Shown piece after piece: positions 18,886 through 49,054 of a stretch of DNA of 64,000 nucleotides (position 1 is its first letter; each line of letters starts with the position of its first letter). The stretch is from positions 2,542,001 through 2,606,000 of the forward strand of contig JBLDXI010000029.1 of assembly GCA_047495785.1 (NCBI GenBank), given 5' to 3'. This DNA comes from Lepidodermella squamata (taxonomy: Eukaryota; Animalia; Gastrotricha). The notes below the pieces were generated by a model, which had not been told where the DNA came from, did not search any database, and saw only the letters and a list, made by a program, of their open reading frames with translations. Made by a program: the position numbers and the translations under genes.

Positions 18886-19280
18886 GCTCTTGATACGCAA
18901 GTTCCTACAAACAATATATTCCTGTATATGATTACCATGACCCTATAACTCTAATTCCTCTGATTATTTTGCTTGCTCTTTTCGCACACAATATTTGCAT
19001 AATACCGATTATTTGGATATAAAAAATGGCTCGCGACGTGGAGGCGAACCTGGACACTATTAGTCTGTTAGACCAACTAAAACGTAACTAAAATTCAACC
19101 ATCGGACTGAGTCATAGCGGGCAATTTTTACGCAACATCTCTTGTTTTACTGTCTCGAGGAAAACTGCGAATAGCACAGGAGTATCACATCGAATGGTAT
19201 CACAATTTTTCCCAAGCAAAGTTCTTTATCATTGCGCATTATTGCTCATCTTCTCTTTGGCTATGGTATTCGGCTTTCAT

Positions 19281-20582: not shown

Positions 20583-20847
20583 TTTAAAGTTTGAAGAGGA
20601 TCAAAACACGAACGAAAATGAAAGCGAGAAGATTGCTGTGAGCTTTAAATTACAAAAGCAGGTGATGATTTCATCGTAGAATATCGGCCCTATTTTATAG
20701 TCGAACTGTTTTGACGGCACGCGATTTTAATTTTCGTGTCACACTGCTTCATTTTTCAACACAGGAAAGAACATCTCGGCGCGTGTCAAAACTACGCCGC
20801 GTTTTACTTGCCACTCAATTTTGAAAAACACCTTTATTATCTTTTAT

Positions 20848-23517
20848 TCAGGAGTAGAATAGATGACTATAATTGGGCACTATATAGAACAAGAAAACTG
20901 GAGTCGCTGCGATAAAAAAGATGTAAGACACAAGAACAAATCGGTCCATTACATCCGCTATAAATTCCCATCGATGAATTCGATAGATCTCCAGGGCCCT
21001 TTTCTGATCTCTTTCTGCCTGTTCACTGGCAAAGAGCTTCCTCCCGCCATTCGTATCATCTGTGTCCCGATTTAGGCCGAATAATTCGCCTTCCTTGTGA
21101 TATAACGAGAAATAAGTTCCAGTCAACATTGCGTTGTAATCGGGCCCTGTTTCGTCGCTGATCAGAGGTTTCCGCGGCTTTTTGACCCTGAAAACCGGAG
21201 CAATCACCTCAGCACCCCGGTACAGCCACTCCGGCACTTCCTGTTGACGGCGTTGATCGCGGCTTTTTCGATAACAAACAAAAACTACGCCCTCGCCCAA
21301 CATCGCCAGACAAATGTAAAGCATTGATAAATCGATGTAGTAGCAAAGCAAAGGAATTCGATCTGAAGACCGCGGTATGTCATCGATTATCATAAGTTGG
21401 AAAACGCCATATGCCAAGAGACACGTGAAAGATAGCTCCAACTTCTCGCTATCGTTGACTTCGGCGGTGAAGGTGGCAACCTCGGCTAGGGAAATAATCA
21501 AAGATGGGACTATGACATTGATCAAGTAATATCCGATTTTTCGCTTGATTGTCAGATCAAACTCGACCCTTGAAAAGGTATTTGTTGGGATGACGTATTG
21601 AACCCGTTTTGAACGCTGGGCAGTTCCAGTCAACTGCCATTGCTCATTTTCTATCCACCATCTCTGTTGAATTGTATCGCCAAAGTGGAAAATTTGAAAT
21701 TCGATCGTGTATCGCCAACTTTCGAGAATCAACGTGCAGTTTTGCGAGTCGAATGGGAAAAGCCGGAGATCGAAATCGCAGAAGGCTCGGAAGGTTCCGC
21801 CTGGCCGGTAGGAGACGTAGCCGTTGCTGGAAACTCGCACCTTTTCTTCGCCATACATCAACAGCAGCTCGTAGTGCTGCTCCGAGTTGATCATGGCTAT
21901 TTCTGGTATCCAAATCTTGTCATGAGGAAGAGTTACGCTGGGGACGCAAGCGTGAGGGAAAGTCTTGTTCCATGAATGAAATTCGTCGAACCAGTACTAA
22001 ACATGAAATCGGGATGCTTAGATACAAAATCAAAATTATATGTAAAATTTCTCACAAAAAGCAGATAGCCAGAGAGCTTCAACGACTTTTCCCGCTCGAT
22101 CTTTGGAAAGAAAAAAAAAGAAAAAAATTGCTTTTGAAATAAAGAGAATGGTTATACCTGAAAATTAAGAAGCGCCTACATTACATTTTTTTAATTTTTT
22201 CAATCTCAAATAAAATCAGCCTTTAATCTCAAAATTTTCAATTTTTTTCCGAAAAATCATCATCCATGCCATATAATATTGAAGCCTATTACTGATCCAT
22301 TATTGCCGGACTCGATGAAACGCTAATTTGTAAATCACATCACGAGTGTGAATTAAATTGGGAAAAATGGGGCTGAAACTAGATTTTTCCACGGTATAAA
22401 GTCGATTCGATTTTAGGCTTAAAACAGCAGATCTATTTTCTTGATTTTTCAACTAATTTCTAATACCAGAATTCCCCTAAAAAATGCGCGCTGTTTTCAT
22501 CATAGCTGCAGTGGTTCTCATGGCTATTGGTATATTTCGATATTTCTTTTAATTGATGCATACAACTATTGAATTTTTAGCCATCTCCGAAGCCGATGCT
22601 GGCCGTGGAAACAAGGGCACAAGTGTTTCGAAGAGCGTCTCCATCAGCGTGTCGTACAACCGGCAGCCGAAGAAGCACGCGATGAAGAAGCGCCCGGCCA
22701 AGAAGGCCTTCGTCGCTGGGCGCAAGCACCGCCGTGCCTCGTTCTCCAAGTCCGTGTCCGCGTCGGTGTCGGCCCGCACGAACAAGCACACCCGCAAGGT
22801 CTCCACCAAGAAGTTCATGCGCGTGCACAAGCGCGGATCCATGTCCGGCTCGTACTCGCGGTCGGGCTCCTTCGGCGGCTACAACAAGAAGGGCGGCAAC
22901 AAGCGCCACGGTGGCAAGAAGTTTGGTGGCAAGAAGGGCGGCAAGCACGGCAAGAAGGGCCGCAAGGACAGCAAGAGCGGCAGCTACTCGGCCTCCAACA
23001 ACTTCTCCTACTCGGTTGCCGTCGAAACCGGTGCTGCCCACGAATGAAAACAAAACCCTCGACTCGGCGTGACATAATGATGACCCGCCAATGGGCAATG
23101 GGCCCTTATTTATTTTGAAATAAAATTATGAAAAATTCTAATTTACGGCTTTTCTTAATCGCGAAATCACATAATCTTACAATTTGTTTAAATTTGCGAA
23201 TAAGGAAAATCTCAACAAACCACGTCGTTTATTGAAGATATAACCAGTCTGATTTCGATATTGATCGGCTTGTTGCTTTTCAGCAGCGGCCTGACCCAGG
23301 TTTCGTGCTTACCGAACACATCCCTTGCTATAATATACTCATTAACCGAGACATTCCGGCACAAGGCTGAACTCGGCGGAATAGCTTGCACCAACGGTTT
23401 AGGAACGATGTCATCCCACCAGTTGTCAGTCAAGGAACTCGAGTTTGTCGCAAATTGCTGAGCATTAGTTTTTACTATCAGAGAAATAATAAGCAAAAGT
23501 GACATAAGCAAAATCAT
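20848..23517 (-). CDS. Divergent Cys-loop ligand-gated ion channel subunit (nAChR/5-HT3-like, non-alpha; ~496 aa; exons 23221-23517, 22056-22100, 20848-21996)
   Basis: Signal peptide; VRP; the typical 45-nt exon; IWIPEI; Cys loop [15 protein letters not shown]; M1 [10 protein letters not shown]; M2 [12 protein letters not shown]; M4 DRFVL. No vicinal Cys in loop C. Confidence 0.9.
22484..23047 (+). CDS. Secreted basic Lys/Gly/Ser-rich protein, copy D, nested antisense in intron 1 of the Cys-loop gene (exons 22484-22529 and 22581-23047)
   Basis: [15 protein letters not shown] + 51-nt intron + AISEADA|GRGNKG...; TATAAA at ~22395, AATAAA at ~23119. Confidence 0.88.
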
Positions 23518-31816: not shown

Positions 31817-33247
31817 CTTTATGGTTTTGATTGAGAAGGAGAGGATAAATAGTTCGAATGGAACTGGATTGATGCCATTTCTCTATATCTCGTCGAGATT
31901 ATATAGCGTCAGAACCATTTTTCGAAGCGTAGCTTATAATGACGCTCCTAATGGGGTGCTGATCATTGAAATTCTCATAATGAAAGTTACATCTGAAAGG
32001 TTATTTTGTCAGTCAGATTAAAAAAGGCAAGGCATCGAAACCTTAGAAGCGTTTAGCACTATTGCACCGTTTTGGAAATTATTTTATCCGACCAAGTTTC
32101 TGTGAACATTGATTTATGGAAATCACACCCTAAATTTATGGTTTCAGCTACGAATTTCAGTTTTAAACACTAGAATTTCTCATCATGGATTTTCAAGTTT
32201 CACGCCTTCCTGATCTTCGGATCTCACTATTCCGCGCATTATTCGCTGGTTTAGCGATCAGTTTACGAGTCAAAATCTAAGGAATATAGAGGAATTTTGA
32301 AATTTAAGCGGAAACAAATATTTCGACCAATTTCGACCCCAAAATTATAAACCGAAATGGTCAATCAATGGTCGCATAATCAAGATACATTTTTTATTTT
32401 TAATCATCTCTTGAAATGCCAAGTCAGCAGACTACTACACAAAAATTTGCAAAAAATCACAATAACACCGAATAAGATTCACGTATTATACAGGTCTCAG
32501 AGTGAAAGATGAACGCAAAGCTCAAAAGTTTCGACTCTAACCTTGTCAAAGGAATCTATTCGGAAATGAACGGTTATGATGCTATAGCGATTTTCCCGAA
32601 GTGTGGTGGGAAATCCGCTGAAAAACGCCCTAATTTTAGCTGTAAAAGTAGGATCCTACTAAGCTCGTACTTAGGTCTCAGGAGACTGACCTTTCAGAGC
32701 ACGTATCAGGTTAGCACGTATAATGCTAAATGTTGACAAATGAGAGAAAAATCTGAGAAAAATTATAGCCAGTTTTTACAAGTTCGAGTGAGAATAGTGA
32801 GAATAGTGAGAAGTTTTGTGATTTTGCATCGCGCGAGGAAAGCTGCAATTACGCAATAAAAGGACGCGCAAGGAGCAATTGCGCGTAAATTCAACCAGAA
32901 AATAGGAGCGCGCGCGCGGAGGAAACACCGGCGGGCCGGAAAATGTGCGAGAATTTTGATGAGAATAGTAAGAGGAACAATTGAGAAATCAAAAGAAGAC
33001 ACCAGTTATCATGAGACCCCAATGAGGGCCGGATAAAAGAAACCACACGTGGCAAATAGCTGCTAACGATTCATTTCATGCTTATTCATATTAACCGCAT
33101 TCATTCATTCCTTATTCATTATAACCATGAATTGAATGAATAACCTCTGCTATGAAATGAATCAATAGCGCAGCTATTTGCCGCAAAAACGTTGCGTTGT
33201 TGCAAGTCTGATATATTAATTCGGTTTAAAAGTATTGCAACGACAAA

Positions 33248-35069
33248 ATGATGAGCCAAAATTTGGTTTACACCTCCTACGACACTTTCTCGAGAGACCT
33301 GAACTCCTGGAGATGGGACGCTTTCAGATTTCTGGACATGGAAGGTCGGGCGCAGTTTGAAAGAAAGAAAAAGCCGTATTGCTTCCATTTTGTACAGAAT
33401 CTTACAATGAAGACGCAGCTCGCGTTGTAATTACCTTCAAGTATTACGAAGCTTTCCTGCAAGACTTTGGCAAGGAAATTTTCGGGGTAAAGTTAAACAC
33501 TGGCAACCCGTTCATCTTCAGAGTTAAATCGTCTGAAATCAATCCGCAAGCAGTACCACTCTGGAATATATTCAAAACCAAGGCATTCAGGTAAAGTTAA
33601 GCTCATAACTCACGCCCTTGATAAAATTGTTTCCTACGGAATGCTCAACCCCTCAAAACAAATAAACTGTAACATTAGTTTCACTAGATCAACAGGTCCC
33701 TAAATATCTTTCATATTTTCACACCTCCTATGCCTAAAGCGAGGGGGTACTACAATTATTTAGCTACCGAAAAGACGTCAAAATTTGGACGGGCTGAGTT
33801 TGGACATTCGAGCCTTGAGCTTTCCGACGGTATCAAATTGGATACATCTTTCTCGCATTTTAAATTTATGAAAATTTACCGAAGCTGTGCCACTATCATA
33901 TGCGTTTTGGGAGCCTCCTTGCCATAGGTAAACCCGGGATCCGTCAGAGCTGGGCTTTTTACTCCATGACCAGCAAATGAGCGTCCAACTTCAAACCTAA
34001 TTGTCCAAATTTATGCATAACTAAAATCAATTTTTAAAATCAGATCCCAAATTATAGGAAAAATTCAGCTAATTCCAAAATGACAGCGCGAAGGCTCTGC
34101 AGTTTTGCCAGAAAAATTAATTAACTCGACCTTATTTTTTAGAGTTAAAAAAACTTGTTAGAGTTAAAAATTAAGAACGTTTACGATCTTTTTCCAGTGA
34201 AATTTTCACAAACGATCAAAATCCATGCAAACAGCAGCTGACTTTGCAAAACGGAAAAGATAAGGACAGCCGTTTCAGCTTACTCTGCGCGGAATTGACT
34301 CCACCTCAAAACCTTTGCTGGTTCGACTGGCATTGCTTTTTTTACGGCGTCCGCTGTGCGTTGGGGCACGGAGACGCAGAAGAAACTCTCTTTCGGGGAT
34401 GCTTACCTCAAGATCGAAGGGTTAAAATTAGACAGGTATTTATAACTTTACTCTTTCTTGTCAAAACTCAACGATAGCAAGTAGGCTTTGAATGCAGTCG
34501 TCTCCAACGGCATACTATGCGGGTATCAAAGCACAGAGAACAGGATTGCATTCATAGAGAATCTTATCAAACGGCTGCCGTTTTTGGGCACGATGTTGAC
34601 GTGGAAATCTTCTAAACCAAAACGGAAAAAGTACGCACAATATTCTCGTCTGGGAGGGACGCTAGCTGTAATCGGTCAAACTTCAGCTGTTGTTTCCGTT
34701 GGCATTTTTGCCGCTTTGCTGCGACTTGAGCCAAAGTCATTCGTCCGTGCTCAAAAAGTTGCACTCGGGCTGGGCATAGCACTCGGCACTGCGACGTACG
34801 CTTTCGGATTTCAAGTGAAACGGACATTTGGAGAGCTGGCTAGAAATCGAGAAGCAGGTCTTCATCAGTGGCGGTGGGCGAAAGACATGCTGGCAATGCT
34901 TGATTACGCCGAGTTGATGTTGAAGGAGAAAAACCCGAAAACCTATGACAGGCAGCGCTTTTCCTACGCCGTCAAGTTCTGGATGCCACAAATGTTGTAC
35001 GCTCTTGCGACGACGTTGATGAACAAAGTGAAAAACGAGGACAAGCGCTTACGGGCAAATATACCTTAA
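33248..35069 (+). CDS. Orphan ~370-aa protein with two C-terminal hydrophobic helices, copy 1 (exons 33248-33344, 33398-33590, 34198-34435, 34485-35069)
   Basis: Four short ORFs join in frame through GT-AG introns of phase 1, 2 and 0; hydrophobic LGGTLAVIGQTSAVVSVGIFAALL and VALGLGIALGTATYAFGF. No family recognised. Confidence 0.65.
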
Positions 35070-35113
35070 TCAGTAGATTAGATTTGAGCGTTCTGTTTGA
35101 GTCATTTTTGTTT

Positions 35114-36796
35114 TGTGGCGGTGACACCTTTAATAAATAGCACGTGTCACGCCACGAATTGTTATTTCTGTCTGGCGTCTGGCGTGATGCCATTCCGCCT
35201 ATAAAAAGGCCTACCTTGATACGTTTAGATCATCTACCGTTTCGGCATAGACAATGATGTAACAGATCGGACACTCACGCACTTGCCTGTTGTCGTTAAA
35301 CCATAAATTTGCACACTAATTTTAATGCATTGATTTAAAAGGTGGAAAAATAAGCATATCTCCAAAAATTTTGAAATTTTTATGGAAAGAATCTCCGTCT
35401 TTCAAGGTTTCTAAAGATCAAAGGCTCATCGCGCGATTCGATGCCGTTGATTTTTAAATTGAAAAACAAAAATTTGCATTAAAATTTATTTGTTGAGTCC
35501 TTATTTCATTTTTTTTCGCGTGGCCACATGTTTTTTTCACGAAAACACAAGCATTTGGCACCATGCTGTTTTATTTATTTATCTCTCAAGACATGATTCA
35601 GTTAAAAATCATCGTATAATTTAGTGAACTATCAAGCTAGATAGCAACAAGTCATAGTTTTCTGGTGCTTTTCTGGGTTGGTTCGCGAGATTTCAGGCAA
35701 GCGATGGAATTAATACGATTAAACCATAGGCCGGGTACACCGGGTCGTTTTCGGGTTTAAATCGCTGCAAGCATATGTAAGTAGCTCGCAGTGGCCTTCG
35801 ACTCGGCCCGATTTGTGAAATCCTGATGCTTGGCGACCTTTAAAAGAATTGATAATGATAAGAACAAGCGGTGCAAAGTTGAATTAAACAGAATTTAAAC
35901 TAATTTTAATTTTAATTATTTTATAATGTGTTTAGTATTCATGTTCTGGATTTCAATAATGAAATTGATTTTTCCGGCATTTTTGGAAATGTTAGAAATT
36001 TTCAAAAATAAATTTTCAATATTTCAGAAATTTTCAAAAATAAATTTCGATAAATGTTCACTACCTTTGTTAGTAAGGGAGGGTGGCTCACCATCATTCG
36101 TCTCGTCGCCGTTGACGAAATGATCGAAATTTGCTCTGAATCACAGTTTTTCTCTGCAAAGCCTAGAAGACTAAAATTCGGATGAAAAAAGCCTACATAG
36201 TTTCGAGAAATTAAGGTGGATTTTAATTACATGGAGATTTTTTATGTAAAATTCCTCCTTAAAAGTTGAATTAGAATATTTCCTGCCGTTTCTGCTAATG
36301 GGACTCATAATCCAAGTGTGTGCAATCAGAGCAGTTTTTCTCACTACTATAGTCTTTTTCTTCGAAATTCCAATGAGTAATGATTACGCAACACAGCTTT
36401 ACAGTGTGCAAATAATCGATTTTTCGATATTGATTTTCTCGATAACGAAGCCGATTCGCGCGACAGGGTTTGGTCCATTATGACCGTCAAAAAATGCCTG
36501 ATTTTTTGATATTTTTTCCAAGAATTTATGAGATATGCTTTTTTTCGGCCAAATTTATAATGGCCGATCCACGGTACAAAGTTCATAATTAAATTTCAAT
36601 GCGAAGTGTGTGAGTGTCCGATCTGTAACATTATTGTCTATGCGTTTCGGAGATCATAAAGTAGCTTAGCTCTAGCCTTAATAAAATGCCTTAGTTTCGT
36701 AACTTCCGAAGTGTGTTTTTGCCCAATCATCCTAACATCAAACAAGTCGGGTCGTCGGTCATGATCCCGTGATCGCGAGAACCCGTCACCGTTACA
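35114..36796. mobile_element. Solo LTR (~280 bp net of the nested insertion), 5-bp TSD TGTTT
   Basis: Termini TGTGGCGGTGAC...GTCACCGTTACA; TGTTT on both sides (35109-35113 and 36797-36801); the paralogous site near 42684 has a single TGTTT; internal CTATAAAA and AATAAA. Confidence 0.8.
35246..36642. mobile_element. Non-autonomous TIR element (P- or hAT-like; CATAGAC TIRs, 8-bp TSD) nested in the solo LTR
   Basis: ~40-bp TIRs CATAGACAATGATGTAACAGATCGGACACTCAC and complement ending GTCTATG; TSD cgtttcgg at 35238-35245 and 36643-36650. Confidence 0.85.
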
Positions 36797-37917
36797 TGTT
36801 TGATTTGTTTTCAATTCGCTCACAACTGCAACAAAATAGGGCAAGGGACGTCATTTTGACGTCATCAAAGCATTCAAAACTGTCAAATCTAATCCACTGG
36901 AAATAATAAGATATCTCTCTATGTCTATGCCTTGAACCCCTGAACCCTTGAATAATTAAGTAAACGACAACATCAATATTGGGACAAACGCATTGACTAA
37001 GCCGTCAAAGGTTTTCGAAAGCTCTCGAATCGCTTTTTCAGAAAGAACGGATATTTTTATTCGGTCAAGATTCAGTCGAGTCATCGCAAGCTTGAAGCTT
37101 GAAGCGAGCCATTCGGAGTCGAAATAAACTTGTCTGTGTTCACAAAAAAAAGATCTTTTTTACTACATATTTTGGCAAAAGTCTCTAACCTTTGATGCCA
37201 TAAAACTTTTTAGTCGCGATTTTTCACGTAGGGCTGAATGGCTTTGTCCAAATACAAATTAATGTATAAAAGAAAAATATATTATACAATTCAAACTGCA
37301 TCGAAAAGTCAGAATTTGGTAGTTAGAAAAATCACGTTTTGAATTCTATGTAAAAATCGCGTAGTTACAAAGCATCATTTCAATGTAATTTTAATTCCAT
37401 TGATTTTCACCGCAGTTTGCACTCCACTTTTTAGCATCAAGGTATTGGATTCACCACGATTCTTCAAAACAATAAACTGATAATTAATGACCGTGGTCAC
37501 TCTCAAACAATTTCTCCACTTTTTAGATATAAAAATACGTTTTTACATGTAATTTTGTGGGTGTAATGTCGATAAAATTCCAGTTGATTTCAATTTCACC
37601 TTGTTACATGTAAACTATTCACTTAACATCGATGAATTTCGGCTCAATTCTTCGTGGAAGCACGACATTATACCAGGTAAAAACAAGCGCCATCTAGCTA
37701 CATCCGCCATTACATGTCGAAAATGCGTCTTTACCTGTAAAAATGTCGGCTTTGCAGCTAATGCCGCCCAGTTTTTTCTGTGCGGGAATGACCTCAATTC
37801 TCTGCCCACTTTTCAAAACTTTCGGAATTTTTACTTTCAAAATGCTCTTTGTGAAACAAAAATTACTTTGAAAATAAAAAGAGGCTTCAGCTGATTTGAG
37901 AAAGTGTAAACTGCTGC

Positions 37918-38637
37918 GGTTACGGCGTCAACTTGAGTAAGGGAGAAGGCATGGGATACAAACAGCCGCGAATCGTCGCTTAATGAAACTGCGAAGATTT
38001 CCGAGTCGCCAATAGTCGGAATTGTTACTTCTATCGTCGCGTTGCCGATCGCCTTACCTATCGGGAAGAACCCAATTACATTTTTCGCATAGAAAACCGA
38101 GTACAAGAAGCCTGTATCCGAGCCTACAGCGCTGAGGAACGTGTTTGAGGGCAAGTAGCTATACGTGTCAAACTGGAATGTCTCCACATCGCCGAAGTTA
38201 TCCTTGCCCAAATTGACAGAAATCAACTGAACTCGAGTTTTGATCTCCGGTGTTAAAGATTCGCAGCGGACGTACAACGCGGCTGAATTGCCGCTTTCTG
38301 CTATCGCTGGCTGGCCGCATTTATACGCCGAGTCGAAAGAACCAGCTACAGCTACAACCTTAAACCGATTGCCACTATCTGCGTCGTACATGTAAAGCTT
38401 GCCCTGGTCGTCGATTTGGAAAATTGTTCCATTGTAGGCCACGATTTGGTCATTTGACGTGAAATTCGAATCGAGAACCACGTCGAATTTACGCATAAGC
38501 TCGATGCCGTTATTTGCTACAACAGAATCAGCCTTATAGCCAGTGTGAGCTTGATCGCCCCCTGCGTTTGACCATGATGACTTGAGGTCAGCATGAGCCG
38601 TAGCCAAAATGAGAGAAATAAATGCCAGTAATTTCAT
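37918..38637 (-). pseudogene. 3'-truncated PQQ-type beta-propeller gene, copy 2
   Basis: MKLLAFISLILATAHADLKSSWSNAGGDQAHTGY...; homology to copy 1 stops at VDAVT. Confidence 0.65.
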
Positions 38638-39528
38638 AACGGTATGAAGCTTGAGTATAAACACAGGAGCTGATTGTGCCTTTTTATGCTGCCTGAGATG
38701 AATCACGATGAATTCAGAGCTCTAGTTGGCAGATATATCGGTCTACTCAGACGTATATGGGGGAGTTGCGTATGAGGCAAAAGGCGGTTCCGCAGAGCAT
38801 ATATGTCTACGCACTTGTGTGTTTTGTTACTCAATACAAAGTCCACCATGAGGTGTGGTAAAAAAAAAGACAACCAAATTGTCCTTATTGGGACCAGCGT
38901 ACAGTATGATGCAGCTGATTAATCCGTTTAATCATATTCGCGAACAATTTTTTTCCAGATATCTTCTATGGCGGAACCAAATTTCAATTGGCACCAAACG
39001 CTAACTTAAGGTAGTGCAATTTTCTAATCATATTGAGATGATGAAATTGACAATGGCGTGGGTGTTTTTGTGTTATTCAACCCGGCTTGCCCGAATGGTG
39101 GATAGCTGGACCTGAAGCCCGTGCATGTTTGTTTATCCTGCCCGCATCGTCCAACTTTCCCGGTTCGCCTGCGGATCCATTCAGCCCATTTGCTAAGCTT
39201 GTCGCATTTCTCAGTCCAACTCGCCTAGTGTGAAAAAGAGGCCAAGGGATCGAGCAAAAGCTGGTGGGGCATGCGATTTGACAGCAAATACGAAAATAAG
39301 GTGATTTTTTAATCCCAGCAGGAGATAAGCCGTGATAGGAAGTACCTCAAAGGTGATACAGTGATTATCAACAATTCAAAAACCCCAATTGGATTTACCA
39401 TCGGTGTTGGTAAAAAGCTTGGTGTAATTTGAAATCCTGGTGGAATCTAATAAAACACTGCGACGCGACTGCTATGCATGCGATACAGTCCATATTTTGC
39501 AATTATTTTACGACTGTGAACTGAAGAA

Positions 39529-39578
39529 ACAAATATGGAACGCTTCACGATTTTGCGTGTCATCCTTGCGCAGGGGCC

Positions 39579-39617
<39 letters not shown>

Positions 39618-39634
39618 CCAAGTCGAAGATTGAC
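39529..39634 (-). ncRNA. U6: U6 snRNA variant/probable pseudogene, copy 3
   Basis: Core matches the other copies, but the 5' stem reads GTCAATC-TTCG-ACTTGGC (2 mismatches) and the 3' end reads TATTTGTTT (broken T-run). Confidence 0.85.
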
Positions 39635-40773
39635 AATAACGAAGACTCAGACCAGCTATTTAAACGAAATCCGCGCTGTCGAAAAATTTCAGTTTATCTG
39701 ATTTGAATATTCATAATTCCGGTTGTGTAAATTGTAGTTGAAAAGAAGTTAGTAAGTCTCTAGAAACGAACTAGCTACGCCAAAATTAAGAGTAGCAAAG
39801 ATCATTTTATTTGAAACGACACCATGAAAGAAGAAAATTATAATTTTCTGCCCATAGAGAATAGAGTTACCAGAGAGGAAACTCCAATAAGAAGCTTGAA
39901 GTTTTAATTCTTTGCGCGATTTTGATAAAATTGTCATTAAGCCGGATTCTTTTCATCTCAAACATGCACTTTTACAGCTAAAATTAGGGCGTTTTTCAGC
40001 GAGCTATACCCACCAGACCCCATCATGGATTTTCGATTTTCTTGCTGAAATCGATAGATAATGGTTTCGACTCTAACCTTGTCAAGGGAATCTATTCGGA
40101 AATGAACGGTTATGATGCTATAGCGATTTTCCCGAAGTGTGGTGGGAAATCCGCTGAAAAACGCCCTAGTTTTAGCTGTAAAAGTAGGATCCTACTAAGC
40201 TCGTACTTAGGTCTCAGGAGACTGACCTTTCAGAGCACATATCAGGTTAGCACGTATAATGCTAAATGTTGACAAATGAGAGAAAAATCTGAGAAAAATT
40301 ATAGCCAGTTTTTACAAGTTCAAGTGAGAATAGTGAGAATAGTGAGAAGTTTTGTGATTTTGCATCGCGCGAGGAAAGCTGCAATTACGCAATAAAAGGA
40401 CGCGCAATGCGCGTAAATTCAACCAGACAATAGGAGCGCGCGCGGAGGAAACACCGGCGGGCCGGAAAATGTGCGAGAATTTTAATGAGAATAGTAAGAG
40501 GAACAATTGAGAAATCAAAAGAAGACACCAGTTATCATGAGACATCAATGAGGGCCGGATAAAAGAAACCACACGTGGCAAATAGCTGCTAACGATTCAT
40601 TTCATGCTTATTCATATTAACCGCATTCATTCATTCCTTATTCATTATAACCATGAATTGAATGAATAACCTCTGCTATGAAATGAATCAATAGCGCAGC
40701 TATTTGCCGCAAAAACGTTGCGTTGTTGCAAGTCTGATATATTAATTCGGTTTAAAAGTATTGCAACGACAAA

Positions 40774-42644
40774 ATGATGAGCCAAAATTTGGTTTACACC
40801 TCCTACGACACTTTCTCGAGAGACCTGAACTCCTGGAGATGGGACGCTTTCAGATTTCTGGACATGGAAGGTCGGGCGCAGTTTGAAAGAAAGAAAAAGC
40901 CGTATTGCTTCCATTTTGTACAGAATCTTACAATGAAGACGCAGCTCGCGTTGTAATTACCTTCAAGTATTACGAAGCTTTCCTGCAAGACTTTGGCAAG
41001 GAAATTTTCGGGGTAAAGTTAAACACTGGCAACCCGTTCATCTTCAGAGTTAAATCGTCTGAAATCAATCCGCAAGCAGTACCACTCTGGAATATATTCA
41101 AAACCAAGGCATTCAGGTAAAGTTAAGCTCATAACTCACGCCCTTGATAAAATTGTTTCCTACGGAATGCTCAACCCCTCAAAACAAATAAACTGTAACA
41201 TTAGTTTCACTAGATCAACAGGTCCCTAAATATCTTTCATATTTTCACACCTCCTATGCCTAAAGCGAGGGGGTACTACAATTATTTAGCTACCGAAAAG
41301 ACGTCAAAATTTGGACGGGCTGAGTTTGGACATTCGAGCCTTGAGCTTTCCGACGGTATCAAATTGGATACATCTTTCTCGCATTTTAAATTTATGAAAA
41401 TTTACCGAAGCTGTGCCACTATCCTATGCGTTTTGGGAGCCTCCTTGCCATAGGTAAACCCGGGATCCGTCAGGGCTGGGCTTTTTACTCCATGACCAGC
41501 AAATGAGCGTCCAACTTCAAACCTAATTGTCCAAATTTATGCATAACTGAAATCAAAGGCAATGTTATAGTTTGTATATAACACAGTATACCAATAAAAG
41601 GTTTTCTCTCTCTTAAAATCAGATCCCAAATTATAGGAAAAATTCAGCTAATTCCAAAATGACAGCGCGAAGGCTCTGCAGTTTTGCCAGAAAAATTTAA
41701 CTCGACCTTGTTTTTTAGAGTAAAAAAACCTGTTTTTTGTCCCAATTAAGAACGTTTACGATCTTTTTCCAGTGAAATTTTCACAAACGATCAAAATCCA
41801 TGCAAGCAGCAGCTGACTTTGCAAAACGGAAAAGATAAGGACAGCCGTTTCAGCTTACTCTGCGCGGAATTGACTCCACCTCAAAACCTTTGCTGGTTCG
41901 ACTGGCATTGCTTTTTTTACGGCGTCCGCTGTGCGTTGGGGCACGGAGACGCAGAAGAAACTCTCTTTCGGGGATGCTTACCTCAAGATCGAAGGGCGAA
42001 AATTAGACAGGTATTTATAACTTTACTCTTTCTTGTCAAAACTCAACGATAGCAAGTAGGCTTTGAATGCAGTCGTCTCCAACGGCATACTATGCGGGTA
42101 TCAAAGCACAGAGAACAGGATTGCATTCATAGAGAATCTTATCAAACGGCTGCCGTTTTTGGGCACGATGTTGACGTGGAAATCTTCTAAACCAAAACGG
42201 AAAAAGTACGCACAATATTCTCGTCTGGGAGGGACGCTAGCTGTAATCGGTCAAACTTCAGCTGTTGTTTCCGTTGGCATTTTTGCCGCTTTGCTGCGAC
42301 TTGAGCCAAAGTCATTCGTCCGTGCTCAAAAAGTTGCACTCGGACTGGGCATAGCACTCGGCACTGCGACGTACGCTTTCGGATTTCAAGTGAAACGGAC
42401 ATTTGGAGAGCTGGCTGGAAATCGAGAAGCAGGTCTTCATCAGTGGCGGTGGGCGAAAGACATGCTGGCAATGCTTGATTACGCCGAGTTGATGTTGAAG
42501 GAGAAAAACCCAAAAACCTATGACAGGCAGCGCTTTTCCTACGCCGTCAAGTTCTGGATGCCACAAATGTTGTACGCTCTTGCGACGACGTTGATGAACA
42601 AAGTGAAAAACGAGGACAAGCGCTTACGGGCAAATATACCTTAA
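40774..42644 (+). CDS. Orphan 2-TM protein, copy 2 (4 exons)
   Basis: Near-identical to 33248-35069 with intact splice sites; few substitutions (V>A, R>G). Confidence 0.65.
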
Positions 42645-43769
42645 TCAGTAGATTAGATTTGAGCGTTCTGTTTGAGTCATTTTTGTTTGATTTGTTTTCA
42701 GTTCCCTCACAACTGCAACAAAATAGGGCAATGGACGTCATTTTAACGTCATCAAAGCATTCAAAACTGTCAAATCTAATCCACTGGAAATAATAAGATA
42801 TCTCTCTATGCTATGCCTTGAACCCTTGAATAATTAAGTAAAAACGACAACATCAATATTGGGATAAACGCATTGACTAAGCCGTCAAAGGTTTTCGAAA
42901 GCTCTCGAATCGCTTTTTCAGAAAGAACGGATATTTTTATTCGGTCAAGATTCAGTCGAGTCATCGCAAGCTTGAAGCGAGCCATTCGGAGTCGAAATAA
43001 ACTTGTCTGTGTTCACAAAAAAAAGATCTTTTTTACTACATATTTTGGCAAAAGTCTCTAACCTTTGATGCCATAAAACTTTAGTCGCGATTTTTCACGT
43101 AGGGCTGAATGGCTTTGTCCAAATACAAATTAATGTCCATTCTATAAAAGAAAAATATATTATACAATTCAAACTGCATCGAAAAGTCAGAATTTGGTAG
43201 TTAGAAAAATCACGTTTTGAATTCTATGTAAAAAGTCGCGTAGTTACATAGCATCATTTCAACGTAATTTTAATTCCATCGATTTTCACCGCAGTTTGCA
43301 CTCCACTTTTTAGCATCAAGGTCTTGGATTCACCACGATTCTTCAAAACAATAAACTGATAATTAATGACCGTGGTCACTCTCAAACAATTTCTCCACTT
43401 TTTAGATATAAAAATACGTTTTTACGTGTAATGTTTTGGGTGTAATGTCGATAAAATTCCAGTTGATTTCCATCTCACCTTGTTACATGTAAACTATTCA
43501 CTTAACATCGATGAATTTCGGCTCAATTCCTCGTGGAAGCGCGACATTATTCCAGGTAAAAACAACCGCCATCTAGCTACATCCGCCATTACATGTCGAA
43601 AATGCGTCTTTACCTGTAAAAATGTCGGCTTTACAGCTAATGCCGCCCAGTTTTTTCTGTGCGGGAATGACCTCAATTCTCTGCCAACTTTTCAAAACTT
43701 GCGGAATTTTTACTTTCAAAATGCTCTTTGTGAAACAAAAATGACTTTGAAAATAAAAAGAGGCTTCAG

Positions 43770-43820
43770 CTGATTTGAGAAAATGTAAACTGCTCAGCAG
43801 TTTACATTTTCTCAAATCAG
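43770..43820. repeat. Perfect 25-bp inverted repeat with 1-nt spacer
   Basis: ctgatttgagaaaatgtaaactgct-c-agcagtttacattttctcaaatcag. Confidence 0.9.
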
Positions 43821-43954
43821 TGGGAAAAATGAAACTCGCAAACTAGCGTTTTCGATACTTTATAACATCAAACAGTATTTATAGCAGTTAAACAAGTTTT
43901 GTTTTACAGATAAACTGCGTCCCTGGCAGGTTGGCCCGCCTACTTTCCTCGCTG

Positions 43955-44687
43955 CCGGTTACGGCGTCAACTTGAGTAAGGGAGAAGGCATGGGATACAA
44001 ACAGCCGCGAATCGTCGCTTAATGAAACTGCGAAGATTTCCGAGTCGCCAATAGTCGGAATTGTTACTTCTATCGTCGCGTTGCCGATCGCCTTACCCAA
44101 TTACATACCCACGGGAAGAACCCAATTACATTTTTCGCATAGAAATCCGAGTACAAGAAGCCTGTATCGGAGCCTACAGCGCCGAGGAACGTGTTTGAGG
44201 GCAAGTAGCTATACGTGTCAAACTGGAATGTCTCCACATCGCCGAAGTTATCCTTGCCCAGATTGACAGAAATCAACTGAACTCGAGTTTTGATCTCCGG
44301 CGTTAAAGATTCGCATCGTACGTACAACGCGGCTGAATTGCCGCTTTCTGCTATCGCTGGCTGGCCGCATTTATACGCCGAGTCAAAAGAACCAGCTACA
44401 GCTACAACCTTCAACCGATTGCCACTATCTGCGTCGTGCATGTAAAGCTTGGCCTGGTCGTCGATTTGGAAAATCGTTCCCTTGTAGGCCACGATTTGGT
44501 CATTTGACGTGAAATTCGAATCGAGAACCACGTCGAATTTACGCATAAGCTCTATGCCGTTACTTGCTACAACAGAATCAGCCTTATAGCCAGTGTGAGC
44601 TTGATCGCCCCCTGCGTTTGACCATGATGACTTGAGGTCAGCATGAGCCGTAGCCAAAATGAGAGAAATAAATGCCAGTAATTTCAT
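43955..44687 (-). pseudogene. 3'-truncated, frameshifted PQQ-type beta-propeller gene, copy 3
   Basis: Near-identical to copy 2 but with a small insertion at ~44100 shifting the frame after IGFFP. Confidence 0.65.
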
Positions 44688-45400
44688 AACGGCATGAAGC
44701 TAGAGTATAAATATATCGGCAAGTCGACGAGGATTTGTAAGATGATGACTAAAGCCTCACTAGGTTTCACTGGAGCTGATTGTGCCTTTTTTATGCTGCC
44801 TAAAAGATGAATCACGATGAATTCAGAGCTCTAGTTGGCAGATATATCGGTCTACTCAGACGTATATGGCGGATTTGCCCATCGGGCAATAGGCGGTTCC
44901 GCAGAGCATATATGTCTACGCACTTGTGTGTTTTGTTACTCAATACAAAGTCCACCATGAGGTGTGGTAAAAAAATAGACAACCAAATTGTCCTTCGTGG
45001 TACCAGCGTACAGTATGATGCAGCTGATTAATCCGTTTAATCATATTTGCGGACAATTTTTCTAAGCTTGTCGCATTTCTAAGCCATAGTCCAACTCGCC
45101 TAGTGTGAAAAAGAGGCCAAGGGATCGAGCAAAAGCTGGTGGGGCATGCGATTTGACAGCAAATACGAAAATAAGGTGATTTTTAATCCCAGCAGGAGAT
45201 AAGCCGTGATAGGAAGTACCTCATAGGTGATACGGTGATTATCCAAAATTCTCAAACCTCAATTGGATTTACCATCGGCGTTGATAAAAAGCTTGGTGTA
45301 ATTTGAAATCCTGGAATCTAATAAAACACTGCGACGCGACTGCTATGCATGCGATACAGTCCATATTATTTTGCAATTGTCACCACTGTGAACTGAAGAT

Positions 45401-45450
45401 AAAAATATGGAACGCTTCACGATTTTGCGTGTCATCCTTGCGCAGGGGCC

Positions 45451-45489
<39 letters not shown>

Positions 45490-45506
45490 CCAATCCGAAG
45501 ATTGAC
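45401..45506 (-). ncRNA. U6: U6 snRNA, copy 4
   Basis: Body matches copy 1, with intact stem and T5 terminator. Confidence 0.97.
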
Positions 45507-45755
45507 AATAACGAAGACTCAGACCAGCTATTTAAACGAAATCCGCGCTGTAGTACATTTTCAAGTGATCTGTTTTGACTATTCATAATTCGCGTTTCAA
45601 TTGGAAATAAAAGAAATTAGCCAGTTCGTCGCTAGAAACGAGCTGGCTGTCTCAAAATTAAGACCATTAAAGATCGTATCAAATTTATTTCAATTTTAGA
45701 CTTGGGAATAAATTATCATTGAAGAATGTAATTTCAACACCTTTCTGAAATGTTT

Positions 45756-45866
45756 TTATTTAGCGGGGGCAGCACCGGTTTCGACGGCAACCGAGTAGGA
45801 GAAGTTGTTCGAGGCCGAGTAGCTGCCGCTCTTGCTGCCCTTGCGGCCCTTCTTGCCGTGCTTGCC
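45756..45866 (-). pseudogene. 3' fragment of Lys/Gly/Ser-rich gene (copy F), cut at 45866/45867
   Basis: [36 protein letters not shown] plus the family 3' UTR; homology ends sharply before AGTAGT. Confidence 0.85.
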
Positions 45867-46729
45867 AGTAGTAATACTACGCCGGAGCTGGCTCACCCAC
45901 CTGAAAATGAAATTTCCAGCTCCTAGCATATTCTCCGCAGAAAATTTTCGGCTTTTGCATGGGGTTTTACGAAATGCATAAAACGGCGCCAAAGAGTCAA
46001 AATCGCCTCCGAAGCATATCCAAGTCGAATTTAAATCAATTATTTCGATCATCAAATTTTCAGCTCCTTAAAATTCAAAAACAGCCCTAAAAAGGGGTAA
46101 TTTCTAGAACAGCGGCTATCTATTGAATTTGCACCAGATATGAATTGCCTTCAGTGTTTTTTTTTTCACAGACAAGCCATCTATTCAGAATAAAATTTAT
46201 GCGCTCAGCAGATAGGAATTGCCGGAGCTGAGCCACTTGACGGCTTACGCCCTTTTTGGCAATTCGAGCCTGACCATGGAAATTGGCAAAACATTTCAAG
46301 GACGTTTTGAATAAATATTTAATGAGTTTGAAATTGCTGGAAAGATGAGTTATGACAATTCCGCGTCCGCAAATGAGGACAAAATTTCGGTGTAAGGGGG
46401 GGAGTATTAGATGCGCAAAACATACATGAGCGAGTTATGACTCATCACACACACAACACTTCCCTAAAATAACACTATAAAATGAGACAAACGCACATAT
46501 AAATGGGCCGAGCCCACTGGCATAATCAAAAGCCCATTGAAAGGTGAATCGGCTACGTTCTGTATCAATGGCGTTGCCAACGTCATTGTCGCGAATTCAA
46601 AGGCATTGAGAACCTATACAGCTGTGATTTGACACACCTGGTCAATGAAAGCTCTGCAAAAGTAAGTATTCTATATAATTTAATTTTCTGCTCGAATATA
46701 AGCTCGTCTGGCGCATTGCTAGCATTCCG

Positions 46730-47586
46730 ATGGATGCCTCCATTTGCGCAGTAAATTATTATTCAACCAACTCAGGTAGCAAGAAGATCAGCATAGGAAA
46801 AGAGTGGAATAAGAAGAAAGACCCAGCGCCTCATTTGAGCTGCTTATATCTAGCTTACAAATACCGGCAACGTCAATCACGGTTTCTCGTTCGATTGCAG
46901 CGAGAGTTTACAACCAAATTTGGCATAAAAATTGTTCCAGCGTACGGTACATTGTTAGGTAAGGGCTTTATATCGAATCTGCAATCATTTATCGATTGAT
47001 TTGGCAAAAGGCTTCATGCGGGAAGGGGATATAATTCCCTTCGACGATGATCTGGATTTGTTTGTTACGAAGACTCAATTTGGCGATTTAATGCAGTTTT
47101 ACGAGCAAGGCAGGCCAATAAAAAAACAGAAGGATCAAAGAATAGTCAAGATCGAAGGAACGGATGGAAAAATGAAAACATGGGTGCTTGGAATTGAAAG
47201 AGGCGATCGGAAAGAAATTTCACACATATCTGTATATTCATGGCAAACGAACATCGTACAATGGCCGTTTGCAGAATTTTTTCTGGATGAGCGATTTCAT
47301 GTAACTAATTGACATATTTTAATCCTGCTTGTCATTTTAATTTTTGCAGGAAAACACGAAATTGACTGCGGAAACCGTGAAACTCAAGGCTGATTCAGGA
47401 ACTGAGTTCAGATACTATCTACCCGATTTCTGGCGGGAGTTTCTTGTTGAAAATTATGGTGATGATTGGCAAACCGTGGTGAAAATTGCCGGTGGACACA
47501 GAACAGACCACGACAAGAACTTGCAGAGCTCAAAAAACTGTTGCTATGATTTCAGAACAGGATTACTAGTAGCGCAGCGAGCCTGA
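46730..47586 (+). CDS. LicD/fukutin-family nucleotidyltransferase-fold protein (at least 3 exons; 5' end uncertain)
   Basis: AYGTLLG|(intron)|FMREGDIIPFDDDLD matches the LicD GTLLGxxRxxxxIPxDxDxD motif; C-terminal FLVENYGDDW; second intron 47301-47349. Confidence 0.72.
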
Positions 47587-47702
47587 GATTGAGTGAGATC
47601 CTCAGATTTTCAGATTTTCTTTCCCACCTAGATAATGATGTATCCAAGGAGCAGTAAACTGCACAAATTTGATGTGTCTCTTCCGCTTCTGGCTCAAAAG
47701 CT

Positions 47703-47840
47703 CAAAATGTGCCTATCGACAACGTTTTTCAACGACCCACGTTGTGGTTGAAAACTTGTCCAAATATTACGAGTCATATATCATTCGAAAGCCAGTAAAG
47801 TACAGATTAAAAAATTGGGATTGGAATTTCAAGTTTCGCT
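47703..47840 (+). repeat. Copy of the ~180-bp repeat unit also present at 62.96-63.21 kb (direct orientation)
   Basis: 47769-47840 matches 63000-63071 with one mismatch; caaaatgtgcct is shared with 63107-63118. Confidence 0.85.
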
Positions 47841-48088
47841 AACGTTTGTTGCAATCTTACGATACAGTGGCCGTATCCTTCAACTGTCGTGATGTCTTGA
47901 ACTGTACTATTCCAGCAGCTAAAACATGTCTCTGAAAATTGCGCGTTCACGAATGAGGACAAAATTACGGTGTAAGGGGGGAGTATTCGTGGGAAGACGT
48001 GAGCACACCTTACAAAAGAAATGTAGTTTTCCTTTTCTTTAATTCAATTTTTGTCAGAATCTATGCAGGTGTAAATGAGCCGGTTATA

Positions 48089-48755
48089 TTAAATTACGTA
48101 TAATTCAGCATGGTTACTGTTATGATATACAAATATAATTGGTAATAATATTGTCACAATTAAGGTGATCTTAGCAGCCTCGTTTTTTATACCCTTGGAC
48201 TTTGGGGTAGACGACGACCAGCTGGTCGACCAGCTTGTCAACCAACCGGAGCGGGACCACGCGGAAGACGCCCATGCAGTCCATTGACTCTGCAATTTTG
48301 CATCGCTCCAAGCGAGCCAAGAAGGTGTGTAGGAGTTCGAAGCCGTAATTCTGGTATCTAACAGCGTTGTTGTAGGGTTGCAAAAGTCGTTGCTATTTGA
48401 ACACCCTGCGGAACAACAGACACAGAATAAAGCCCATCCAGGGTCATCATAATTTATCTCTTCTGTAACCACAGGATATTTAGTCCGACTTTCTATACAT
48501 GTTGGTACATAGGTGGCTAGGATGCAATTGTAGGCAAATTTTATTTCGGAGCCTTTCGAAGGTCGTGAGATGGTTACAGAAACCTGCAAGCGTGACATTT
48601 AGAAGAAAGCTCTTTAATGAATAACCTATTCTTACAGCGCATTGACCACATCCTCCAACTGTCGTAGCATCTGTAGTCGAACCGTTCAGGCAACTGAAAC
48701 CAGAGCTTGTACTTATTGACTGTACAAGAACTACCAGTAAGATTATGCAGTACAT
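48089..48755 (-). CDS. Secreted/membrane Cys-rich (Ly6-like) protein with Trp/Ser-rich stalk (exons 48636-48755 and 48089-48583)
   Basis: Signal peptide, FSC...CGQC, phase-0 52-nt intron, CVCC...FCN, WxxW-rich segment, C-terminal hydrophobic anchor. Confidence 0.7.
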
Positions 48756-49054
48756 AATTTCAGTAATATATTTTATCTCACAGCGAAATATTGTTCAAAT
48801 AGCAAAATGAGCACGGAATGAGAAAGCAACTTCTGTACTGAGAATCCTGTAGCCAATAGCAACACCATTAGCTACCCTATTCAACCTATTTAACGGGTGA
48901 AAAGAATTGATAAGTACGAGTGTGGTACACTGGAGTGAAAGTTCCCGGGAAAGCAAGCGAGTGAATGATAGATCAGAAACGCTTCGCCTCTCATTAACAA
49001 AATATGAAAAAACATATCATCAATACATTTAGACCTATTGAGCTCGCCTGCAGT

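What the first reader, a model, noticed from the sequence alone, without database searches (positions are those of the whole stretch)
45861..49054. Candidate Polinton left terminus (AGTAGT) cuts a host gene and would make two intron-containing genes viral cargo
Seen: the basic-protein copy F stops abruptly at ...CTTGCC and the next bases are AGTAGTAATACTAC. Known: Polinton TIRs begin with 5'-AG short tandem repeats such as AGTAGT and make 6-bp TSDs. Inference: if this is the terminus, the element is >18 kb and carries a spliced LicD-like gene and a spliced Ly6-like gene between the TIR and the viral core, i.e. captured host genes, as reported for cargo-bearing nematode Mavericks. A repeat shared between 47.7 kb and 63.0 kb is compatible with both flanks belonging to the element. 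No matching right TIR is visible in the window.
Basis: partly seen in the sequence, partly recalled or inferred. Interest (0 to 1): 0.8.

Follow-up and report, generated by a model that had tools for sequence, protein, structure and literature searches.

The report
Polinton carrying two spliced cargo genes
A virus-like jumping element (Polinton) in an animal genome begins where a host gene breaks off and holds, between its likely end repeat and its viral genes, two intron-containing genes that are spliced in public sequence data and were likely taken from an animal host and copied along with the element; such cargo is known from nematode Polintons, but my searches found no report of these two gene types in one.

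Summary
Observation confirmed; interpretation largely supported but the decisive test was impossible. Copy F of a Lys/Gly-rich host gene stops at 45866, where all 5 paralogs continue, and AGTAGT, the commonest Maverick end motif, follows. Public contigs (run X1) put 45867-~46470 at about 20x and the polymerase at about 10x the depth of an apparently single-copy contig, the 2:1 ratio expected of a terminal inverted repeat. The LicD-family and Ly6-like genes sit at about 3-4x, so a minority of sister copies likely carry them. Run X2 shows all three predicted introns spliced. The core is a Polinton: pPolB, rve integrase, A32 ATPase, double jelly-roll capsid. No genome is held, so the right TIR and the CTTGCC duplication are untested, and no host parent of either cargo gene was found. 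The arm is a patchwork: a second inner-TIR motif, a Ly6 paralog exon relic and a piece of the post-polymerase repeat. Unexpected extra: 9 of 13 core genes, but neither cargo gene, carry a TCTA motif like the CroV/mavirus late promoter. Verdict: new variant of the known cargo-bearing Maverick.

The parts
45758..45866 (-). 3' stub of Lys/Gly-rich host gene copy F, cut by the insertion
   Evidence: homology to 5 paralogs ends at 45866
45861..45866 (+). predicted 6-bp target-site duplication CTTGCC (left copy; right copy not in window)
   Evidence: position next to AGTAGT; 6-bp TSD rule from PMC8097293; untested
45867..46468 (+). likely left terminal inverted repeat, about 600 bp, starting AGTAGT with a terminal 5-bp hairpin
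   Evidence: end motif; X1 depth 728-1780 at four places, about 1800-2050 over 46233-46468; four contigs at 46446 but one at 46592; inner limit approximate
46353..46408 (+). inner-TIR motif R1, repeated directly at 47933-47987 (88%)
46730..47586 (+). LicD-family gene, three coding exons 46730-46958, 47011-47300, 47350-47586 (251 codons by exon lengths; start codon not proven, an upstream exon is possible)
   Evidence: Pfam LicD; both introns skipped in X2 contig; relative P0121 48% and 39% identical with extra residues at the same two intron positions
47693..47840 (+). piece of the 183-bp repeat array that follows the polymerase gene (P repeat)
   Evidence: 72-91% identity to 62956-63207
47855..47926 (-). 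relic exon of a diverged Ly6-like paralog, with the same GTAAGA donor
   Evidence: 11 of 20 residues identical to exon 1, E 4e-7 pairwise
47933..47987 (+). second copy of the inner-TIR motif (R1')
48089..48755 (-). Ly6/uPAR-like gene, two exons (204 codons by exon lengths): hydrophobic N-terminus, ten Cys, Trp/Ser-rich stalk, hydrophobic C-terminus
   Evidence: splice seen in X2; Atlas leads under 0.9; name not confirmed by Pfam or fold
49055..50871 (-). three core-side ORFs of unknown function (205, 237, 160 aa); the 237-aa one has tail-fibre-like motifs
51044..51493 (-). adenain-like cysteine protease
   Evidence: Peptidase_C5 E 0.007, below cut-off; homologs in 9 of 25 related loci
51475..52104 (-). 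pX-like ORF
   Evidence: its homologs in L003 and L008 hit Adeno_PX weakly
52130..53509 (-). double jelly-roll major capsid protein
   Evidence: model matches Sputnik, PBCV-1, SGIV and mavirus capsids, E 1.5e-12 at best; homologs hit PF21738
53851..54597 (-). probable minor capsid protein (inferred from size, position and conservation)
   Evidence: homologs in 5 of 25 loci by tblastn; no family or fold hit
55808..56518 (-). A32-like packaging ATPase
   Evidence: Pox_A32 E 4.5e-7
56565..58118 (+). rve integrase with N-terminal PLA2-like and C-terminal chromo domains in one ORF
58529..62770 (+). [quoted passage not shown]
   Evidence: 45% identical over 894 columns to P0024, which hits DNA_pol_B_2 at E 2.9e-17; 7976 homologs
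62956..63393 (+). three diverged 183-bp P repeat units after the polymerase
   Evidence: X1 depth 740 at 62905, like the core
63325..64000 (.). apparently single-copy stretch right of the core (right variable arm, or host flank if the right end is lost)
   Evidence: one 1437-nt X1 contig, depth 91, 0 differences over 676 nt, runs 761 nt past the window end

Best explanation
This is the left arm of an integrated Polinton: a likely 600-bp terminal inverted repeat begins at 45867, where a host gene copy breaks off, and two spliced genes (LicD-family and Ly6-like) lie between it and the viral core as cargo that likely moves with a minority of the element's copies. Steps: (1) inferred: the rve integrase inserted the element into one of roughly a hundred copies of the Lys/Gly gene, which would duplicate CTTGCC. 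(2) Shown by contig depth and branching, with caveats: the family has a constant end, a constant core, and a variable arm of about 2.5 kb between them. (3) Inferred: the arm was built in steps by recombination between sibling arms, leaving R1/R1' direct repeats around the LicD module, a Ly6 paralog exon and a piece of the right-hand repeat. (4) Shown: both genes are transcribed and spliced somewhere in this or a very close species; inferred: from integrated copies, by host polymerase II. (5) Inferred: the LicD protein would transfer a phospho-alcohol from a CDP donor to a glycan (family function, recalled), and the Ly6-like protein would sit on the cell surface, so the provirus likely alters the host cell surface.
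For: Sharp break plus the (AGT)2 end motif, the most common one in vertebrate Mavericks (PMC8097293 passages). X1 depth relative to the 91x contig: inner TIR 20-23x, polymerase bins 10x, core median 11x, LicD contigs 2.8 and 3.2x, Ly6 contig 4.1x. Four contigs cover 46446, one covers 46592, so the sequence forks at the inner end of the repeat. The cargo contigs are 556-689 nt long with 0-2 substitutions against the window, so the copies are young. All three introns are spliced in X2. The same layout, a 2-5 kb variable region with intron-bearing genes next to the left TIR, is described for nematode Mavericks (10.1101/2022.07.12.499685, section 11). The P repeat and R1 occur only inside 45867-64000.
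Against: Right TIR and TSD not seen; no genome held. X1's loose ends at 45867 were not among the 24 rows shown (168 hidden). The tool warns that summed contig depth is no copy number; overlapping short contigs inflate it, library amplification is unknown, and X1 may be the window's own source. The host part of this window has recent tandem duplications (32.5-39.8 vs 40.1-45.7 kb, 89-96%), so duplication without transposition happens here. No single contig spans TIR, cargo and core. 0 of 25 related IMG/VR loci hold either cargo gene. No host parent gene was found, and cargo GC is not raised, unlike the nematode cargo. X2 transcripts cannot be assigned to this locus. The 1437-nt single-copy contig shows that no high-copy right TIR starts before about 64.7 kb.
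Confidence: 0.75

Rival explanations
1. Composite of two elements: 45867-47990 is the arm of a separate, possibly non-autonomous Polinton derivative carrying LicD, joined to an older Ly6-bearing element whose own TIR survives only as R1'. The whole would not move as one unit.
For: R1' and the P-repeat piece at 47.7-48.0 kb mark an internal seam. The Ly6 contig is deeper (376) than the LicD contigs (253, 289) and ends at 48234. An X1 contig joins 63104 to 47726-like sequence (depth 319), so P-repeat variants occur in other contexts.
Against: Depth stays at 248-289 on both sides of the seam (46592, 47678, 48151), as expected if the same three or so copies carry the whole arm. No second AGTAGT end and no TSD at the seam.
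Confidence: 0.12
2. The terminus is real, but the cargo's extra copies come from segmental or tandem duplication of this locus, or from ordinary host loci; the genes were trapped once and never transposed.
For: Recent tandem duplications flank the site. Polinton TIRs are known to rearrange neighbouring host genes (eri-6/7; PMC11414722 passages). The left flank is multi-copy, so depth cannot show where the 3x block begins.
Against: The stretch right of 63325 is at 1x while the cargo is at 3-4x. Cargo GC3 matches the core, and a 55%-identical Ly6 paralog relic in the same arm points to long residence in elements.
Confidence: 0.09
3. 45867 starts an unrelated repeat, or the join is an assembly error, and the Polinton really ends near 48.9 kb.
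For: A contig branch lies at 48922, and no contig spans the whole arm.
Against: (AGT)2 at the exact break (about 0.0009 by chance); 2:1 depth against the polymerase; no end motif or depth peak at 48.8-49.0 kb; element-specific P repeat inside the arm.
Confidence: 0.04

Closest known systems
Cargo-bearing nematode Mavericks (wasp proteases, krma kinases; bioRxiv 10.1101/2022.07.12.499685; passages and sections 11, 14 read)
   Same: Full Polinton core; a 2-5 kb poorly conserved region next to the left TIR holding intron-bearing genes; cargo differs between copies.
   Different: Cargo here is a LicD-family gene plus a Ly6-like gene, two at once, and is not GC-rich; the capsid module, not the integrase, adjoins the cargo; no fusogen was recognised among the ORFs (Pfam, PHROGs; not searched specifically); named polymerase relatives are from corals, a nemertean, a mussel and a dragonfly at 44-52%; no horizontal transfer was shown here.
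Vertebrate Mavericks (PMC8097293; passages read)
   Same: 5'-(AGT)2 end, TIR within 46-1447 bp, size within 12.7-24.6 kb, accessory ORFs.
   Different: That study saw no introns in genes of intact elements; here two accessory genes are spliced.
Adintoviruses (PMC8502044; passages read)
   Same: PolB, integrase, adenain, capsids, PLA2-like and pX-like domains, host-like accessory genes (Bcl2, IAP).
   Different: LicD and Ly6-like genes are not in the passages seen; the PLA2-like domain is fused to the integrase here, not to pX.
Mavirus and type 4 EMALE virophages (PMC8547959, PMC6723459; passages read)
   Same: TCTA motif in AT-rich context upstream of genes; rve integrase, pPolB, double jelly-roll capsid.
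   Different: Animal host; the motif is on 9 of 13 core genes rather than all, and is absent at the polymerase; no helper virus identified; a four-letter core can arise independently.

Membership tests
Polinton/Maverick | [quoted passage not shown] | tested here: met
   45% identity over 894 columns to P0024 (DNA_pol_B_2, E 2.9e-17); own Pfam scan gave only Endonuclease_7
Polinton/Maverick | retroviral-like (rve) integrase | tested here: met
   rve E 2.9e-13 plus chromo domain
Polinton/Maverick | A32-like packaging ATPase | tested here: met
   Pox_A32 E 4.5e-7, above cut-off
Polinton/Maverick | adenovirus-type cysteine protease | tested here: inconclusive
   Peptidase_C5 E 0.007, under cut-off; homologs in 9 of 25 related loci
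Polinton/Maverick | double jelly-roll major capsid protein | tested here: met
   model (pLDDT 56, pTM 0.60) matches virophage and NCLDV capsids, best E 1.5e-12; three homologs hit PF21738
Polinton/Maverick | single jelly-roll minor capsid protein | tested here: inconclusive
   conserved 248-aa ORF in the expected module, no family hit, not folded
Polinton/Maverick | 5'-(AGT)2 or (AG)3 end motif | tested here: met
   AGTAGT at 45867, at the break
Polinton/Maverick | paired terminal inverted repeats | tested here: inconclusive
   no partner in the window; 2:1 depth ratio fits a TIR; right end outside the window
Polinton/Maverick | 6-bp target-site duplication | not testable with these tools
   no genome held; the end pattern is absent from viral and metagenome contigs
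Cargo-bearing Maverick (nematode type) | intron-bearing genes in a variable region between left TIR and core | tested here: met
   three introns spliced in X2; depth 3-4x between 20x and 10x blocks; conditional on the TIR call
Cargo-bearing Maverick (nematode type) | same cargo linked to elements at several loci | tested here: inconclusive
   multi-copy by depth, loci unknown
Cargo-bearing Maverick (nematode type) | cargo GC higher than the core | tested here: not met
   GC 0.41-0.43 vs 0.385 core and 0.43 host part; GC3 like the core
Cargo-bearing Maverick (nematode type) | horizontal transfer between species; herpesvirus-like fusogen | not tested
   X3 holds a 325-nt LicD piece at 97%, context unknown; no fusogen profile was available
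LicD/fukutin-related phosphotransferases | GTLLG...DDDxD nucleotidyltransferase-fold motif and Pfam LicD match | tested here: met
   motif spans intron A; Pfam above cut-off; activity untested
Ly6/uPAR (three-finger) proteins | 8-10 Cys ending in CN, signal peptide, C-terminal anchor, three-finger fold | tested here: inconclusive
   Cys pattern and hydrophobic ends present; Atlas leads 0.79-0.84; no Pfam hit; exon 2 model uninformative, pLDDT 33
Virophage-like helper dependence (mavirus type) | late promoter shared with a giant virus that activates the element | tested here: inconclusive
   TCTA 16-26 nt before 9 of 13 core starts vs 47 of 534 background ATGs, P 1.6e-7; no helper known

The most novel reading that the evidence does not exclude
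An animal provirophage with lysogenic conversion: the capsid and integrase genes wait for the late transcription machinery of a giant virus (mavirus/CroV-like TCTA promoters), while the integrated copy constitutively expresses two spliced surface-modifying genes, a LicD phosphotransferase and a Ly6-like membrane protein, that change how the host cell is recognised by viruses or other partners; cargo modules are swapped between sibling arms.
Probability: 0.15. Interest if true: 0.85.

Novelty: new variant of a known kind. Interest (0 to 1): 0.52.

Why it matters
Intron-bearing cargo in Polintons is documented mainly from rhabditid nematodes. This case adds two new cargo types, direct evidence that the cargo is spliced, and relics that show how an arm is built module by module. 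If the copies prove to be at different loci, Polintons are duplicating surface-related genes in this animal. The TCTA motif offers a testable handle on the open question of whether animal Polintons replicate alone or need a helper virus.

Tried and rejected
Whole genome: none held. Exact end pattern: 0 matches in viral contigs and 0 in metagenome contigs. Capsid protein in viral contigs: 0 loci of 5 pattern matches. Polymerase alignments: 25 distant loci in viral contigs (30-45% identity), 1 short locus in metagenome contigs; none of the 25 carries the cargo or similar TIR DNA; L017 starts GTAGTAGT at its contig end, a weak hint only. Homolog searches with a LicD exon and with a host GAIN-domain exon found nothing, so the host phylum stays open; TTTCAG-like acceptors and about 50-nt introns are nematode-like (recalled consensus) but do not prove it. 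The representative search gave 5 hits, of which 2 are credible LicD relatives (P0121, P0123, unnamed, short Logan contigs) and 3 are repeat-driven. PDB sequence searches found nothing useful. Ly6 exon 2 model was uninformative. No listed holder run is on record as RNA. X2 core coverage is patchy and X3/X4 have little or no cover over the Ly6 gene; contigs cannot rank expression or show absence. Long hairpins are not enriched in the element (4 in 18.1 kb vs 12 in 45.9 kb), so no Mimivirus-type hairpin rule. Poxvirus-type TAAATG is not enriched (12 in core vs 28 in host part). Rejected: reading the junction as an ordinary exon of the Lys/Gly gene. A frame is open across it after a TTTCAG on the minus strand, but no paralog has that sequence and the three X2 loose ends shown at 45856-45867 continue as paralog, not as element. 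The original Polinton paper could not be opened.
Full report
Observation. The window's first 45.8 kb are host DNA of an animal: a latrophilin-like GAIN exon, an ion channel, HSP20 genes, retroelement remains, U6 and U3 genes. A Lys/Gly-rich gene has six copies. Copy F aligns to the other five up to 45866 and no further; all five go on as gene sequence after CTTGCC, while F goes on AGTAGTAATACTAC. Its missing 5' part is not in the rest of the window. In vertebrate Mavericks the commonest end is 5'-(AGT)2, with 6-bp TSDs and TIRs of 46-1447 bp (PMC8097293, passages). The chance of AGTAGT or AGAGAG at a given break is about 0.0009.

The core. 49055-62770 holds 13 open ORFs: rve integrase with chromo and PLA2-like domains, A32 ATPase, a weak adenain hit, a polymerase 45% identical to a DNA_pol_B_2 protein, and a capsid protein whose model matches Sputnik, PBCV-1, SGIV and mavirus capsids. 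Integrase, ATPase, protease and a probable minor capsid have homologs in 17, 11, 9 and 5 of 25 related IMG/VR loci. The closest polymerases (55-68%) are unnamed; named ones at 44-52% are from corals, a nemertean, a mussel and a dragonfly. It is a Polinton.

Is 45867 the end? I laid contigs of 4 of the 5 listed public runs on 45620-64000. X1 holds 0.72 of the sampled words and may be the window's own source, so it is not independent, and the tool warns that summed depth is no copy number. With that caveat the profile is clear. One 1437-nt contig from 63325 has depth 91 and 0 differences; I take it as single copy. Against it, the polymerase bins average 10x, the 23 core bins have median 11x (range 5.7-20.5x), and 46233-46468 comes to 20-23x, with single places at 8-20x. 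Four contigs cover 46446 but one covers 46592, so the sequence forks there. A 600-bp block that starts with the end motif, has twice the polymerase depth and forks at its inner edge is what a TIR would give. X1's loose ends at 45867, which could have shown other flanks and the TSD, were not among the 24 rows shown; 168 were hidden.

The cargo. The LicD gene passes Pfam's cut-off. A 749-nt X2 contig with 3 differences skips both predicted introns at GT..AG, and two X2 contigs jump from 48583 to the letters of 48636, the Ly6 intron. X2 is only guessed to be RNA, but spliced contigs show transcripts; they cannot be tied to this locus. An unnamed relative, P0121, matches two LicD exons at 48% and 39% and has extra residues at the same two intron positions. 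The Ly6 name is a lead: ten cysteines, hydrophobic ends and Atlas scores of 0.79-0.84 with all ten best named hits in one clan, which a third of shuffled proteins also reach; Pfam and the fold gave nothing. In X1 the cargo lies in long contigs of depth 253, 289 and 376, that is 2.8-4.1x, with 0-2 substitutions. If 91 is a hemizygous depth, this still needs at least two loci. So the cargo is young multi-copy DNA between a 20x block and a 10x block. Transposition with a subset of elements explains this best; segmental duplication, common in the flank, is not excluded.

How the arm was built (inferred). Between the two genes lie a piece of the post-polymerase repeat (47693-47840), a relic exon of a Ly6 paralog (47855-47926, 11 of 20 residues identical, same donor) and a second copy of an inner-TIR motif (47933-47987, 88%). 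The LicD module is thus bracketed by direct repeats of TIR sequence. The simplest reading is stepwise exchange between arms of sibling elements, perhaps through circular or tandem forms like the one-TIR circle described in C. bovis (section 14 of 10.1101/2022.07.12.499685). An X1 contig joining 63104 to 47726-like sequence (depth 319) shows a third repeat variant; it does not prove a circle. Cargo GC3 (0.35-0.46) is like the core's and below the eight host-part ORFs measured (0.47-0.91), which fits long residence in elements and does not fit a fresh capture. No host parent was found.

An unexpected feature. Nine of 13 core genes (both capsids, ATPase, integrase, pX-like and four unknowns) have TCTA 16-26 nt before the start codon, always as W-TCTA-R-T in AT-rich context; background is 47 of 534 ATGs (P 1.6e-7; the longer motif was defined after seeing the data). 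Polymerase, protease, two unknowns and both cargo genes lack it. TCTA flanked by AT-rich DNA is the mavirus promoter and CroV late promoter (PMC8547959 and PMC6723459, passages). The 25 related loci do not show the long motif at this strength (at most 2 ORFs each). It marks a shared late regulon; whether the activator is a giant virus or an element-encoded factor is untested. Polinton-like viruses tied to entomopoxviruses are known in insects (PMC11296320, abstract start and passages).

Comparison and novelty. The layout matches nematode Mavericks with wasp and krma cargo (section 11). Adintoviruses carry Bcl2 and IAP homologs (PMC8502044, passages). Searches of the held library: Polinton + LicD, 0 papers; Maverick + Ly6, 24 papers, the 10 listed unrelated by title; Polinton + cargo genes + introns since 2022, 4 papers (passages of 10.64898/2026.10.13.758929 held nothing on it); TCTA + promoter + Polinton + virophage, 2 papers, both versions of one protist study. 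PMC6431247 and 10.1101/2022.07.28.501842 were seen as passages only. Subscription journals and the preprint's supplements were not seen. The biochemical role of LicD/fukutin proteins and the Ly6 cysteine pattern are recalled, not from a call.

Verdict. The terminus is very likely real (about 0.9). That both genes are cargo moving with the element is likely (0.75) but rests on contig depth. A new variant of a known kind, interest 0.52.

Noticed in passing
upstream of core genes, 49672-56565: W-TCTA-R-T motif before 9 of 13 core genes, like the mavirus/CroV late promoter; absent at polymerase, protease and cargo.
   Followed up: partly
4746-5126, 9031-9411, ~15.4-15.7 kb, 22556-23047, ~31.2-31.8 kb, 45758-45866: Lys/Gly-rich basic gene family with X1 depth 9780 at 45849, about 100x the single-copy contig, transcribed in X2; several copies lie next to U6 genes, and one sits inside an intron of the ion-channel gene, so the unit may itself be mobile.
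   Followed up: no
63396-63737 (+): 113-codon open frame without ATG in the single-copy stretch right of the core; no Pfam, NCBIfam or related-locus hit; could be an exon of right-arm cargo or host DNA.
   Followed up: partly
56565-58118 (+): PLA2-like domain, integrase and chromo domain in one ORF; adintovirus PLA2 is described as fused to pX instead.
   Followed up: no
45758-45903 (-): The TIR offers a TTTCAG acceptor on the minus strand, in frame with the gene F stub, so a chimeric transcript is possible; none seen.
   Followed up: partly
49.3-62.3 kb and 47074-47398, runs X3 and X4: Runs labelled as another organism hold core pieces at 85-97% identity and a LicD piece at 97%, at low depth; relative species, mixed sample or transfer cannot be told apart.
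   Followed up: no
50878-50912, 62805-62834, 47726-47754: Hairpins after the protease and polymerase genes and in the P repeat; not enriched over the host part.
   Followed up: yes
32528-39803 vs 40064-45675; 6693-8280 vs 19124-20700: Recent tandem duplications of host blocks at 89-96% identity, including HSP20 genes with a long unusual N-terminus.
   Followed up: no
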